Assembly (NCBI RefSeq): GCF_013167455.1
Contig: NZ_CP038328.1
Strand: one strand, 5' to 3'
Source: Escherichia coli O157:H7
GTDB taxonomy: Bacteria > Pseudomonadota > Gammaproteobacteria > Enterobacterales > Enterobacteriaceae
DNA length: 64,000 bases
Part shown: in pieces, positions 14,101 through 17,100 of the stretch
Position numbering within the stretch: the stretch's first letter is position 1
Layout of the letters: each line of letters starts with the position of its first letter
Program-made: the position numbers

Positions 14101-17100
14101 AGATGCGTGGCTGGTTGCCGCATCGATGATCCCGGTGACGCAGCGGCTGAAGTTTCTTGTCGCCCTGCGTCCCAGCGTAACCTCACCTACCGTTGCCGCC
14201 CGCCAGGCCGCCACGCTTGACCGTCTCTCAAATGGACGTGCGTTGTTTAACCTGGTCACAGGCAGCGATCCACAAGAACTGGCAGGCGACGGCGTGTTCC
14301 TTGATCATAGTGAGCGCTACGAAGCCTCGGCGGAATTTACCCAGGTCTGGCGGCGTTTATTGCTGGGGGAAACCGTCGATTTCAACGGTAAACATATTCA
14401 TGTGCGGGGAGCCAAACTGCTCTTCCCGCCGATTCAACAGCCGTATCCTCCGCTTTACTTTGGCGGATCGTCAGACGTCGCCCAGGAGCTGGCGGCAGAA
14501 CAGGTTGATCTCTACCTCACCTGGGGCGAACCGCCGGAACTGGTTAAAGAGAAAATCGAACAAGTGCGGGCGAAAGCTGCCGCGCATGGACGCAAAATTC
14601 GTTTCGGCATTCGTCTGCATGTGATTGTTCGTGAAACTAACGACGAAGCGTGGCAGGCCGCCGAGCGGTTAATCTCGCATCTTGATGATGAGACTATCGC
14701 CAAAGCACAAGCCGCATTCGCCCGCACGGATTCCGTGGGGCAACAGCGAATGGCAGCGCTACATAACGGCAAGCGCGACAATCTGGAGATCAGCCCCAAT
14801 TTATGGGCGGGCGTTGGCTTAGTGCGCGGCGGTGCCGGGACGGCGCTGGTGGGCGATGGTCCTACGGTCGCTGCGCGAATCAACGAATATGCCGCGCTTG
14901 GCATCGACAGCTTTGTGCTTTCGGGCTATCCGCATCTGGAAGAAGCGTATCGGGTCGGCGAGTTGCTGTTCCCACATCTGGATGTCGCCATTCCGGAAAT
15001 TCCCCAGCCGCAGCCGCTGAATCCGCAAGGCGAAGCGGTGGAGAATGATTTTATCCCTCGCAGAGTCGCGCAAAGCTAAGGAAGAAGATAATGGCAACGC
15101 CAGTGAAGAAGTGGTTATTGCGCGTTGCCCCCTGGTTTTTACCGGTGGGCATCGTGACGGTGTGGCAACTGGCCTCCTCGGTTGGCTGGTTGTCGACGCG
15201 TATTTTGCCCTCACCGGAAGGGGTGGTGATGGCGTTCTGGACGCTCTCAGCCAGCGGCGAATTGTGGCAGCATCTGGCGATCAGCTCCTGGCGGGCGCTG
15301 ATTGTTTTTTCAATTGGCGGCTCGCTGGGGTTGATTTTGGGACTGATTAGCGGACTGTCGCGCTGGGGAGAAAGGCTGCTGGATACCTCAATTCAGATGT
15401 TGCGCAACGTGCCGCATCTGGCGCTGATCCCGCTGGTGATTTTGTGGTTTGGCATTGATGAATCCGCAAAAATCTTTCTGGTGGCGCTCGGTACGCTATT
15501 CCCCATTTATATCAACACCTGGCATGGCATCCGTAATATCGATCGCGGGTTGGTGGAGATGGCGCGTAGCTATGGATTATCCGGCATACCGCTGTTTATC
15601 CATGTGATCCTGCCTGGTGCCCTGCCCTCAATTATGGTCGGCGTGCGTTTTGCGTTGGGCCTGATGTGGCTGACGCTGATTGTTGCCGAAACCATTTCTG
15701 CCAATTCAGGCATTGGTTATCTGGCGATGAATGCGCGGGAGTTTTTGCAAACGGACGTGGTGGTAGTCGCTATTATTCTTTACGCCCTGCTCGGCAAACT
15801 TGCTGACGTCAGCGCGCAGCTGTTAGAGCGCCTCTGGTTGCGCTGGAACCCGGCTTATCATTTGAAGGAGGCCACGGTATGAATACTGCTCGTCTGAACC
15901 AGGGCACACCATTGTTGCTCAATGCAGTAAGCAAACATTACGCGGAAAATATCGTCCTGAACCAACTGGATTTACATATTCCGGCAGGTCAGTTTGTGGC
16001 GGTGGTGGGCCGCAGCGGTGGTGGCAAAAGTACCCTGCTGCGCCTGCTGGCAGGTCTGGAAACGCCAACCGCTGGCGATGTGTTAGCGGGCACCACACCG
16101 CTGGCTGAAATTCAGGAAGACACGCGAATGATGTTTCAGGATGCGCGTCTGCTACCGTGGAAATCGGTGATTGATAACGTTGGGTTAGGCCTTAAAGGCC
16201 AGTGGCGCGATGCCGCGCGTCGGGCGTTGGCTGCGGTAGGACTGGAGAATCGCGCCGGGGAATGGCCTGCCGCACTTTCTGGCGGGCAGAAACAGCGAGT
16301 GGCGCTGGCAAGAGCGTTGATTCATCGACCGGGTTTATTGTTGCTTGATGAACCGCTCGGTGCGCTGGATGCCTTAACGCGACTCGAGATGCAGGATTTG
16401 ATTGTGTCACTTTGGCAGGAGCACGGTTTTACCGTACTGTTGGTGACGCATGATGTGAGCGAAGCGGTAGCAATGGCTGATCGGGTGTTGTTAATTGAAG
16501 AGGGAAAAATTGGTCTGGATTTGACGGTGGATATTCCCCGTCCGCGCCGGTTAGGGTCGGTGCGATTAGCGGAGCTGGAAGCGGAAGTGTTGCAACGGGT
16601 GATGCAGCGTGGTGAATCTGAAACTCGCCTGAGAAAACAGGGGTAAAATCCCCGAATGGCGGCGCTATTGCCGCCATTCGGGGATTTATTAAGCCAGTGC
16701 TTTGGTGATCTTCTCGTACAGATCGCCAGATAGATTTTCCAGCCCTTTCAACTGTTCCAGCGCCGCGCGCATTTTCTCCTGACGTTTGGCATCATAACGT
16801 TTCAGGCGAATCAGCGGTTCAATCAGGCGTGAAGCTACCTGCGGGTTACGGCTGTTCAGGTCGGTAAGCATTTCCACCAGGAACTGGTAACCGCTCCCAT
16901 CTTCGGCATGGAACGCTGCCGGGTTGCTGCCCGCAAACGCACCAATCAACGAACGAATGCGGTTCGGGTTGCTCATGGTAAATGAGCGATGCTGCAACAG
17001 GCCGCGCACCGTCTCCAGCACATTCGCCGCCGGGCTGGTGGCTTGCAGGATAAACCATTTATCCATCACCAGACCATCCTGATGCCACTTGTCGTCGTAC

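What the first reader, a model, noticed from the sequence alone, without database searches (positions are those of the whole stretch)
16647..16688. Perfect 18-bp palindrome filling the gap between convergent ssuB and pepN
The 42-bp spacer between the two stop codons is almost entirely one perfect hairpin, unusually long and mismatch-free for a terminator. It could act as a bidirectional terminator or RNA-stabilising element insulating the sulfonate operon from pepN.
Basis: seen in the sequence. Interest (0 to 1): 0.25.

Follow-up and report, generated by a model that had tools for sequence, protein, structure and literature searches.

The report
Shared terminator hairpin between ssuB and pepN
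The perfect 42-base palindrome is real and is the shared end-of-transcript hairpin of two genes that face each other in E. coli O157:H7; this is an ordinary kind of element, and its only unusual feature is that this lineage turned an imperfect hairpin into a perfect, symmetric one.

Summary
Confirmed. Window 16646-16687 is a perfect inverted repeat with 18-nt arms and a 6-nt loop. It fills the 42-bp gap between the ssuB stop (16644-16646, +) and the pepN stop (16689-16691, -). As RNA it folds at -35.5 kcal/mol on either strand, and about 7e-6 such repeats are expected by chance in the window.

The window is E. coli O157:H7. The best reading is a shared 3'-end hairpin that acts as a Rho-independent, two-way terminator and an exonuclease barrier. 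In O157 the G+C stem abuts AUUUAUUA (ssuB direction) and AUUUUACC (pepN direction).

Published Term-seq in K-12 puts the pepN mRNA 3' end 4 nt after the 12-bp core stem, with a Rho-sensitive region 262 nt further on. The ssuB direction and the O157 allele are untested.

- **Lineage-specific:** only 338 of 5426 complete E. coli genomes carry the perfect palindrome (O157:H7, O55:H7 and a few others). About 2,800 carry an imperfect form with a 12-bp core, as in K-12. At least 1830 carry a REP/BIME cluster instead.
- **Across species:** all 52 other Enterobacteriaceae spacers analysed hold a strong hairpin, but the sequences are unrelated.

This is an ordinary element of low interest. The TT->GG change that perfects the palindrome looks like template-switch correction.

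The parts
16646..16663 (.). Left arm of the palindrome (AAATCCCCGAATGGCGGC). Its first base is the last A of the ssuB stop codon.
16664..16669 (.). 6-nt loop (GCTATT on +, AATAGC on -)
16670..16687 (.). Right arm of the palindrome (GCCGCCATTCGGGGATTT)
16652..16681 (.). Core (12-bp stem plus loop, CCGAATGGCGGCGCTATTGCCGCCATTCGG). It is identical in every hairpin-allele variant sampled from E. coli genomes and in 22 metagenome contigs.
16684..16691 (+). U-rich tail for transcripts coming from ssuB (AUUUAUUA, 5 U of 8). It overlaps the pepN stop codon.
16642..16649 (-). U-rich tail for transcripts coming from pepN (AUUUUACC, 4 U of 8). It overlaps the ssuB stop codon. Position 16648 corresponds to the Term-seq pepN 3' end of K-12 (993275).
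16648..16648 (.). Polymorphic site: A in O157, O55:H7, O145 and 2023CK; T in K-12-type strains. A restores the pair with T16685 and lengthens the pepN-direction U run from 3 to 4.
16682..16683 (.). Polymorphic tandem site: GG in the O157 lineage, TT in all other hairpin-allele haplotypes. GG pairs with C16651 and C16650 and makes the palindrome perfect.
15879..16646 (+). ssuB, last gene of the ssuEADCB operon. Its last ~13 codons (16608-16646) belong to the diverged patch that distinguishes the hairpin allele from the BIME allele.
16689..19301 (-). pepN (aminopeptidase N), convergent with ssuB
16406..16645 (-). C-rich, G-poor RNA downstream of the hairpin in the pepN direction (C/G 2.3, 2.15 and 1.9 in successive 80-nt bins). 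This is rut-like and matches the Rho-sensitive region mapped in K-12.

Best explanation
The palindrome encodes one RNA stem-loop that is transcribed from either strand. It forms the 3' end of both the ssuEADCB operon mRNA (+ strand) and the pepN mRNA (- strand).

In each direction the G+C-rich stem (14 G/C-dominated pairs, extendable to 18) forms as RNA polymerase transcribes the U run that follows: AUUUAUUA after ssuB and AUUUUACC after pepN. This gives Rho-independent termination. The hairpin left at the 3' end then blocks 3'-5' exonucleases.

The result is that neither transcription unit runs antisense into its neighbour.

What is shown:
- the structure and its energetics;
- its position between the two stop codons;
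- a hairpin at this position in every related species analysed;
- an experimentally mapped pepN 3' end at the K-12 orthologue.

What is inferred:
- termination, rather than only end protection;
- activity in the ssuB direction;
- that the O157 substitutions (T->A at 16648, TT->GG at 16682-83) turn a hairpin that is canonical only toward ssuB into a symmetric two-way terminator.
For: - **Structure:** perfect 18+18 stem, -35.5 kcal/mol on both strands, z about -8.
- **Position:** it fills the gap between convergent stop codons.
- **Tail analysis:**
  - K-12, ssuB direction: 12-bp stem, then UUAUUUAU (6 U of 8).
  - K-12, pepN direction: 12-bp stem, then GGAAUUUA (3 U of 8).
  - O157: the stem extends to 15-18 bp and abuts UUUAUUAA (+) and UUUUACCC (-).
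- **K-12 Term-seq:** a pepN 'primary' 3' end lies at 993275(+), sequence ...GCCGCCAUUCGGGGAA. It was seen in at least two growth conditions with about 1800-2300 reads (PMC7815308 supplementary file 1). This position equals window 16648.
- **Other species:** 57 of 80 Enterobacteriaceae species keep ssuB and pepN convergent. All 52 spacers of 160 nt or less contain a hairpin of -16.9 to -36.9 kcal/mol (median -24.6), although the sequences are unrelated.
- **Natural variation:** the stem core is untouched. Recurrent changes lengthen the U run (A16688T on two backgrounds: RIVM_C039227, L110 and L111).
- **Alternative allele:** in other E. coli the same slot holds REP/BIME hairpins. Such elements are reported to act as terminators and stabilisers (bioRxiv 10.64898/2026.03.23.713779).
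Against: - The U tracts are short and interrupted: 4 U then ACCCC toward ssuB's side, 5 of 8 toward pepN's side.
- The simple terminator scan did not list the big hairpin. It listed only a small alternative hairpin on the minus strand, 16654-16638.
- In K-12 a bicyclomycin-sensitive region lies 262 nt beyond the hairpin in the pepN direction: reads upstream/downstream 77/19 without BCM and 94/135 with BCM, p = 5e-11. The K-12 3' end could therefore arise by Rho termination followed by trimming back to the hairpin.
- No 3'-end data exist for the ssuB direction, because ssu is not expected to be expressed in the media used (own knowledge: it is induced by sulfate starvation).
- No 3'-end data exist for the O157 allele.
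Confidence: 0.8

Rival explanations
1. The hairpin is mainly a protective 3'-end structure, not a terminator. RNA polymerase reads through it, Rho terminates downstream in the C-rich antisense-ssuB RNA, and exonucleases trim the transcript back to the stable stem-loop.
For: - Dar & Sorek 2018 (PMC6061677) show that Rho-dependent E. coli transcripts end immediately after stable stem-loops lacking a U tract, with rut sites just downstream.
- The K-12 pepN direction fits this. The tail is GGAAUUUA and the 3' end lies 4 nt after the stem.
- A BCM-sensitive region lies 262 nt downstream.
- C/G is 1.9-2.3 in the first 240 nt downstream.
Against: - In the ssuB direction the K-12 allele has a textbook tail (UUAUUUAU) directly after the stem.
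- In O157 both directions have a U run abutting the stem, which a purely protective hairpin does not need.
- The BCM signal may come from independent antisense transcripts.
- This model complements the best explanation rather than excluding it.
Confidence: 0.3
2. It is a collision-type bidirectional terminator. The hairpin only pauses polymerases, and termination requires head-on collision of polymerases converging from ssuB and pepN, as in the SEnd-seq / single-molecule model.
For: - The element lies between convergent genes and encodes a hairpin on both strands.
- Wang, Watters, Ju & Liu (bioRxiv 10.1101/2022.10.23.513370) report that such elements position collisions and do not resemble intrinsic terminators.
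Against: - By established knowledge (own), the ssu operon is expressed only under sulfate starvation. In ordinary media there is then essentially no converging partner.
- Even so, pepN shows a sharp 3' end at the hairpin in LB in K-12.
- The O157 hairpin does resemble an intrinsic terminator, with a stem followed by a U run.
Confidence: 0.1
3. It is a degenerate or orphan REP-type mobile palindrome, or a DNA-level element (cruciform or protein-binding palindrome), with no RNA role.
For: - The core CCGAATGGCGGCG...CCGCCATTCGG resembles the Citrobacter REP CCGGATGGCGGCGTTACCGCCTTATCCGG, which lies in the same spacer.
- The alternative E. coli allele is a REP/BIME cluster.
- Insertion sequences target this spacer.
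Against: - There is a single place per genome in 3172 E. coli genomes.
- No second copy exists in the window, even allowing 3 mismatches.
- It has no GTAG/CTAC tail.
- The K-12 record annotates no repeat feature in the spacer.
- All 22 metagenome matches are at the same E. coli locus.
- 18-bp arms are far longer than any known operator half-site (own knowledge).
Confidence: 0.05

Closest known systems
Rho-independent (intrinsic) terminators shared by convergent genes (bidirectional terminators) in E. coli. An example in this window is the A6-hairpin-T6 element after ompF at 24055-24082.
   Same: - A G+C-rich stem-loop lies directly after a stop codon.
- An A-rich 5' flank and a U-rich 3' flank let the same DNA work from both strands.
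- It sits between convergent genes.
- A 3' end has been mapped at the K-12 orthologue.
   Different: - The stem is much longer (18 perfect pairs, against 10-12 for the other perfect terminator palindromes in the window).
- The U runs are shorter (4-5 U) and overlap both stop codons.
- Termination efficiency is unmeasured.
Protective 3' stem-loops of Rho-dependent transcripts (Dar & Sorek 2018, PMC6061677)
   Same: - The stem-loop is stable.
- The steady-state 3' end lies a few nt after it.
- The downstream RNA is C-rich.
- A BCM-sensitive signal lies downstream. All of these hold for the K-12 allele in the pepN direction.
   Different: - The O157 allele has a U run abutting the stem in both directions.
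- The ssuB direction has a canonical U tract even in K-12.
REP / BIME elements (repetitive extragenic palindromes)
   Same: - They occupy the very same ssuB-pepN slot in at least 1830 E. coli genomes and in other Escherichia species.
- They are reported to be terminator-stabilisers.
- The arm sequence is partly similar to a Citrobacter REP.
   Different: - This hairpin is single copy.
- It is a perfect rather than an imperfect palindrome.
- It has no GTAG/CTAC tetranucleotide.
- It is not annotated as a repeat in K-12.
Quasipalindrome template-switch mutation hotspots (Lovett laboratory; PMC7202029, PMC5941160)
   Same: - An imperfect inverted repeat became perfect.
- The changes are exactly the complement of the opposite arm, including a tandem TT->GG.
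   Different: - This is a natural polymorphism inferred from haplotypes, not an observed mutation event.
- Selection for a better terminator could give the same outcome.

Membership tests
Rho-independent (intrinsic) terminator | G+C-rich RNA stem-loop | tested here: met
   18 perfect pairs, 12 of them G-C; -35.5 kcal/mol on both strands
Rho-independent (intrinsic) terminator | U-rich tract of about 7-9 nt immediately 3' of the stem | tested here: inconclusive
   After the 14-15-bp G+C stem the tail is AUUUAUUA on the + strand (5 U of 8) and AUUUUACC on the - strand (4 U of 8). The tool's criterion (at least 5 T in 8, after the maximal stem) did not list the hairpin.
Rho-independent (intrinsic) terminator | Located at the end of a transcription unit | tested here: met
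   The stem starts in the ssuB stop codon and ends 1 nt before the pepN stop codon.
Rho-independent (intrinsic) terminator | RNA 3' ends map at or just after the hairpin | tested here: met
   This holds only for the K-12 allele in the pepN direction: Term-seq 3' end at 993275, 4 nt after the core stem (PMC7815308). There are no data for O157 or for the ssuB direction.
Rho-independent (intrinsic) terminator | Termination by RNA polymerase alone, independent of Rho | not testable with these tools
   This needs in vitro transcription. K-12 shows a BCM-sensitive region 262 nt downstream, so some read-through or Rho involvement is possible.
Bidirectional terminator of a convergent gene pair (SEnd-seq class) | Lies between convergent genes and encodes a hairpin on both strands | tested here: met
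Bidirectional terminator of a convergent gene pair (SEnd-seq class) | Overlapping 3' ends of both convergent transcripts at the element | not testable with these tools
   Only the pepN 3' end is on record. The Ju et al. 2019 paper and its tables are not held.
REP / BIME | Many dispersed copies per genome | tested here: not met
   One place per genome in 3172 genomes; a second 'place' appears only where the perfect palindrome matches itself on the other strand. There is one match in the window at up to 3 mismatches.
REP / BIME | Imperfect palindrome with the conserved GCCGGATG...CATCCGGC arms and a GTAG/CTAC tetranucleotide | tested here: not met
   The sequence is CCCCGAATGGCGGC...GCCGCCATTCGGGG with no CTAC or GTAG flank. 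No repeat feature is annotated in K-12.
Protective stem-loop of a Rho-dependent transcript | Stable stem-loop not followed by a U-rich sequence, with a rut region or Rho-sensitive read-through downstream | tested here: inconclusive
   The K-12 allele fits in the pepN direction. In the O157 allele UUUU abuts the stem, so 'no U tract' is not met.
Rfam RNA families | Match to a curated covariance model | tested here: not met
   Best E-values were 1.1-7.3 to unrelated miRNA, TLS and sRNA models, far below their gathering scores.

The most novel reading that the evidence does not exclude
The perfect palindrome is a recent, lineage-specific product of quasipalindrome correction by replication template switching. 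An ancestral hairpin like that of K-12 had a 12-bp core and three mismatched positions at its base. Two templated events repaired it: T->A at 16648, shared with O145-type strains, and then the tandem TT->GG at 16682-83 in the O157:H7/O55:H7 lineage.

As a consequence, an element that was a canonical terminator only for ssuB, and a leaky, Rho-backed 3' end for pepN, became a symmetric intrinsic terminator for both genes.

This would be a natural, datable example of template-switch mutagenesis rewiring transcription termination. It sits at a locus where whole 'terminator cassettes' (hairpin versus REP/BIME) are also exchanged between strains.
Probability: 0.3. Interest if true: 0.35.

Novelty: new member of a known kind. 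Interest (0 to 1): 0.15.

Why it matters
On its own it matters little. It is a terminator hairpin of a well-known type, and the pepN 3' end at its K-12 counterpart is already in a public Term-seq table.

Three modest points of value:

[quoted passage not shown] The sequence shows an obvious one.
- **Turnover under a conserved role.** The ssuB-pepN spacer shows that the need for a hairpin at this position is conserved across Enterobacteriaceae, while the sequence turns over completely, even within E. coli (42-bp hairpin versus about 200-bp REP cluster).
- **A natural allelic series.** The O157 allele differs from the K-12 allele by exactly the three bases that complete the palindrome. The series K-12, O145-type, O157, and the A16688T variants could be used to measure how stem length and U-tract contiguity set termination efficiency in each direction. 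It could also be used to test whether template-switch correction shapes terminators in nature.

Tried and rejected
- **Rfam scan of 16300-17000 at permissive E-value:** only chance hits.
- **REP membership:** rejected. The element is single copy, has no CTAC tail, and is not annotated as a repeat in K-12.
- **Search for a donor or homologue of the hairpin allele:**
  - None of the 80 Enterobacteriaceae species loci contains it. blastn-short gave only 11-15-nt hits.
  - An exact-core scan of metagenome contigs returned 22 contigs, all with E. coli-like flanks (93-99% identity) at the same locus.
  - Raoultella and Enterobacter sp. 10-1 hairpins (CTCCCGAAGCGCGGC...) and a soil MAG hairpin (GGCGCTATTG loop) look similar by eye. 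The similarity is too short to call homology.
- **A 14-nt match of the arm inside ssuD:** 13 of 14 at 14747-14760, and exact in Citrobacter and E. whittamii ssuD. This is within chance: about 1 match is expected at up to 2 mismatches.
- **Independent origin of GG:** rejected. TUM18780 carries GG with a TGA pepN stop but shares five flanking derived SNPs with O157, so GG has a single origin.
- **Literature not held:**
  - EHEC Term-seq supplement (PMC7547250): not held as text.
  - Dar & Sorek supplement: not held as text.
  - Choe et al. supplement: not held as text.
  - Ju et al. 2019: not held at all.
  - As a result there is no direct O157 or SEnd-seq evidence.
- **Small alternative hairpin GGGGAUUUUACCCC (16654-16638, minus strand):** considered as a competing terminator. 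Judged negligible against the -35.5 kcal/mol stem.
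Full report
**Observation.** The sequence at 16646-16687 reads AAATCCCCGAATGGCGGC-GCTATT-GCCGCCATTCGGGGATTT. 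These are two 18-nt arms, 100% complementary, around a 6-nt loop.
- The ssuB ORF ends with TAA at 16644-16646, and the pepN ORF on the minus strand ends with TAA at 16691-16689.
It starts on the last A of the ssuB stop and stops one base short of the pepN stop.
- It is the longest perfect inverted repeat in the window. In 100 dinucleotide-preserving shuffles the longest arm averaged 9.4 and never exceeded 13. About 7e-6 repeats with arms of 18 nt or more are expected per window.
- As RNA it folds at -35.5 kcal/mol on either strand, with z of -8.3 and -8.1. It remains the dominant structure in a 76-nt context.

**Where we are.** The 541 bases around the site are 100% identical to E. coli O157:H7 strain PV15-279. 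The two genes there are annotated as ssuB, the last gene of ssuEADCB, and pepN. Rfam has nothing at this site.

**Anatomy as a terminator.** I folded the RNA available upstream of each possible stem end and inspected the next 8 nt.

| Allele | Direction | Stem | Tail after the stem |
|---|---|---|---|
| O157 | ssuB | 14-15 G/C-dominated pairs | AUUUAUUA / UUUAUUAA |
| O157 | pepN | 14-15 G/C-dominated pairs | AUUUUACC / UUUUACCC |
| K-12 | ssuB | 12 bp | UUAUUUAU (6 U of 8, canonical) |
| K-12 | pepN | 12 bp | GGAAUUUA (3 U of 8, and 4 nt away from the stem) |

- The A-rich 5' flank and U-rich 3' flank pair with each other in the full 18-bp stem. This is usual for two-way terminators.
- The full 42-nt hairpin is -35.5 kcal/mol in O157 against -25.1 and -25.7 kcal/mol in K-12.
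- The tool's simple scan did not list the large hairpin, because after the maximal stem the tail is no longer T-rich. It listed only a small alternative hairpin at 16654-16638 on the minus strand.

**Experimental evidence from the literature.**
- Adams et al. 2021 (PMC7815308) mapped RNA 3' ends in K-12 MG1655. Supplementary file 1 lists a 'primary' pepN 3' end at 993275(+) with about 1794 and 2337 reads on two sheets. The sequence context is ...AACCGAAUGGCGGCAAUAGCGCCGCCAUUCGGGGAA|UUUACCCCUG.
- The position of the 3' end within the 61-nt strings was checked against SgrS. From the K-12 annotation, 993275 corresponds to window 16648 on the minus strand, 4 nt after the 12-bp core stem.
- Supplementary file 2 of the same paper lists a bicyclomycin-sensitive (Rho) region peaking at 993537(+), antisense to ssuB. 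Reads upstream/downstream were 77/19 without BCM and 94/135 with BCM, Rho score 5.8, p = 5e-11. In the window, the RNA downstream of the hairpin in that direction is C-rich and G-poor, with C/G of 1.9-2.3 over 240 nt.
- This pattern matches Dar & Sorek 2018 (PMC6061677): a stable stem-loop without a U tract marks the trimmed end of a Rho-terminated transcript.
- No 3' end is recorded for the ssuB direction. By established knowledge (own) the ssu operon is induced only by sulfate starvation, so it would not be expressed in the media used.
[quoted passage not shown] That probably reflects database annotation rather than the sequence.

**Variation within E. coli (5426 complete genomes).**
- The flanking region is present in 5424 genomes. 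The hairpin is present in only 3108-3172, always as a single place.
- The exact 50-nt perfect palindrome occurs in 338 genomes. Of these, 310 are identical over 65 nt; the named ones are O157:H7 and O55:H7.
- About 2,500-2,600 genomes carry the K-12-type form.
- Sampled variants all keep the 30-nt core CCGAATGGCGGCGCTATTGCCGCCATTCGG and differ only at the stem base:

| Type | Left base of stem | Right base of stem |
|---|---|---|
| O157 | AAAATCCCC | GGGGATTTATTAAG |
| TUM18780 | AAAATCCCC | GGGGATTTATCAAG |
| O145 / 2023CK | AAAATCCCC | GGTTATTTATTAAG |
| K-12 | AAATTCCCC | GGTTATTTATCAAG |

- Further variants: AVS0947-type has AAATTCTCC, and 98210-type has a 1-nt deletion in the C run.
- GG is restricted to one haplotype. 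O157 and TUM18780 share five flanking SNPs (16073, 16481, 16535, 16857, 16896) at which every other strain compared, including a BIME-allele strain, has the other base. GG is therefore most parsimoniously derived from TT.
- All three differences between K-12 and O157 inside the arms repair a mismatch with exactly the complement of the opposite arm, and two of them are adjacent. A random arm substitution would do this with p = 0.056. That gives 3e-3 for two independent events and 1.7e-4 for three.
- This is the signature of quasipalindrome correction by template switching (PMC7202029). That process has been proposed to maintain perfect inverted repeats in Proteobacteria (PMC5941160). Selection for a better pepN-direction terminator would give the same outcome.
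- A further change, A16688T, lengthens the ssuB-direction U run to U6. It appears on two backgrounds (RIVM_C039227; L110 and L111).

**A second allele.**
- At least 1830 genomes carry a different spacer of about 195-310 bp, made of REP/PU units (a BIME). Examples are EC11 and ATCC 25922.
- Homology with the hairpin allele breaks inside ssuB. The last 13 codons are only 22/39 nt identical (my count). SsuB ends ...HSEQLIRRHG instead of ...[10 protein letters not shown]. Homology resumes exactly at the pepN stop.
- The ...RRHG ending is shared with Citrobacter.
- The BIME spacer is found in E. albertii, E. whittamii, Escherichia sp. E1V33 and the GTDB E. coli representative.
- The BIME allele therefore looks ancestral in the genus and the hairpin allele derived. 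The source of the hairpin allele is unknown.

**Other Enterobacteriaceae.**
- A PepN-based scan returned 80 species loci. ssuB is convergent with pepN in 57 of them.
- All 52 spacers of 160 nt or less contain a strong hairpin, best single hairpin -16.9 to -36.9 kcal/mol with a median of -24.6.
- The sequences differ completely:
  - REP-like units in Citrobacter;
  - CCCTCTCCC...GGGAGAGGG units in Enterobacter and Leclercia;
  - textbook A-tract/hairpin/T-tract terminators in Franconibacter (AAAAAGCCCTGCATCGCAGGGCTTTTTT) and Trabulsiella.
- What is conserved is a hairpin at this position, not its sequence. That is what a terminator and insulator role predicts. The -35.5 kcal/mol of O157 is at the strong end of this range but is not an outlier.

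**Mechanism and rivals.**
- **Best explanation (0.8):** a shared 3'-end hairpin that terminates transcription without Rho in both directions and protects both mRNA ends.
- **Main rival (0.3, not exclusive):** chiefly a protective end for Rho-terminated pepN transcripts. This fits the K-12 allele in that one direction.
- **Collision model (0.1):** the hairpin only positions head-on polymerase collisions. This is unlikely as the main route, because by established knowledge (own) ssu is silent in rich medium, yet pepN has a sharp 3' end there.
- **REP remnant or DNA-level role (0.05):** this fails the copy-number and sequence tests.

**Verdict.** The element belongs to a well-known kind, and half of its function is already visible in a public K-12 data set.
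- The new points are descriptive. The perfect form is a derived feature of about 6% of E. coli genomes. The three base changes make the hairpin symmetric. The locus alternates between a hairpin and a REP cluster.
- Interest is low (0.15).
- The most novel reading still open is a natural template-switch correction that turned a one-way terminator into a two-way one. I give it a probability of about 0.3 and only moderate interest.

Noticed in passing
window 16608-16688; L001 520-760; L002 520-750: The ssuB-pepN spacer is dimorphic in E. coli. A 42-bp hairpin allele occurs in about 3110-3170 of 5426 genomes. A 195-310-bp REP/BIME allele occurs in at least 1830 genomes and also in E. albertii, E. 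whittamii and Escherichia sp. E1V33. The swapped segment includes the last ~13 codons of ssuB, so SsuB ends ...[10 protein letters not shown] or ...HSEQLIRRHG. The donor of the hairpin allele was not found.
   Followed up: partly
L003 1-1500 (E. coli SC418): An IS1397-family IS3-like element is inserted in the middle of a REP unit of the BIME allele, right next to pepN. No ssuB is detectable in the 1.5 kb upstream. This fits the known preference of IS1397 for REP loops (own knowledge).
   Followed up: no
L010 130-1520 (E. coli 23GD11002): An IS421 (IS4-like) element is inserted at the left foot of the hairpin. The duplicated target GGGTAAATTCCC spans the ssuB stop codon. The hairpin itself stays intact on the pepN side.
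   Followed up: no
L110 around 430-500; L111; L095 (RIVM_C039227): The variant A16688T turns the ssuB-direction tail into AUUUUUU. It occurs both on the perfect-palindrome background (L110) and on the 1-nt-deletion background. This suggests recurrent improvement of the U tract.
   Followed up: no
window 24055-24082, 22351-22374, 59421-59450, 45977-46000: These are the other perfect inverted repeats in the window, with arms of 10-12 nt. The first (AAAAAACAGGACTTTGGTCCTGTTTTTT) lies just after ompF and the second just after asnS; both look like ordinary terminators. The other two were not placed relative to genes.
   Followed up: partly
L081 spacer (Buttiauxella agrestis), about 5113-5205 of the locus: The ssuB-pepN spacer contains six tandem TTAGGG units (GGGTTAGGGTTAGGG...) after a CCCTCTCCC/GGGAGAGGG hairpin.
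   Followed up: no
L014 (E. albertii NBRC 107761), downstream of pepN: tblastn finds no ssuB. The 3' end of ssuB (...CGTCATGATTAA) and a reduced REP cluster are still present next to pepN, which suggests ssuB has been lost or truncated.
   Followed up: no
window 14747-14760 (ssuD): ssuD contains CGAATGGCAGCGCT, a 13/14 match to the hairpin's left arm in the same orientation. The exact 14-mer is present in ssuD of Citrobacter and E. whittamii. This is compatible with chance (about 1 such match expected per window).
   Followed up: yes
window about 8108-10707 (elfC): In the identical O157:H7 record the fimbrial usher gene elfC, upstream of the ssu operon, is annotated as a frameshifted pseudogene.
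   Followed up: no
window 16601-17850 compared with K-12, O145, 2023CK, TUM18780, EC11: Flanking SNP patterns are mosaic. On the pepN side the BIME-allele strain EC11 is closer to O157 and O145 (10-11 differences per ~1150 nt) than K-12 is (35-37). This indicates recombination breakpoints at or near the spacer.
   Followed up: partly
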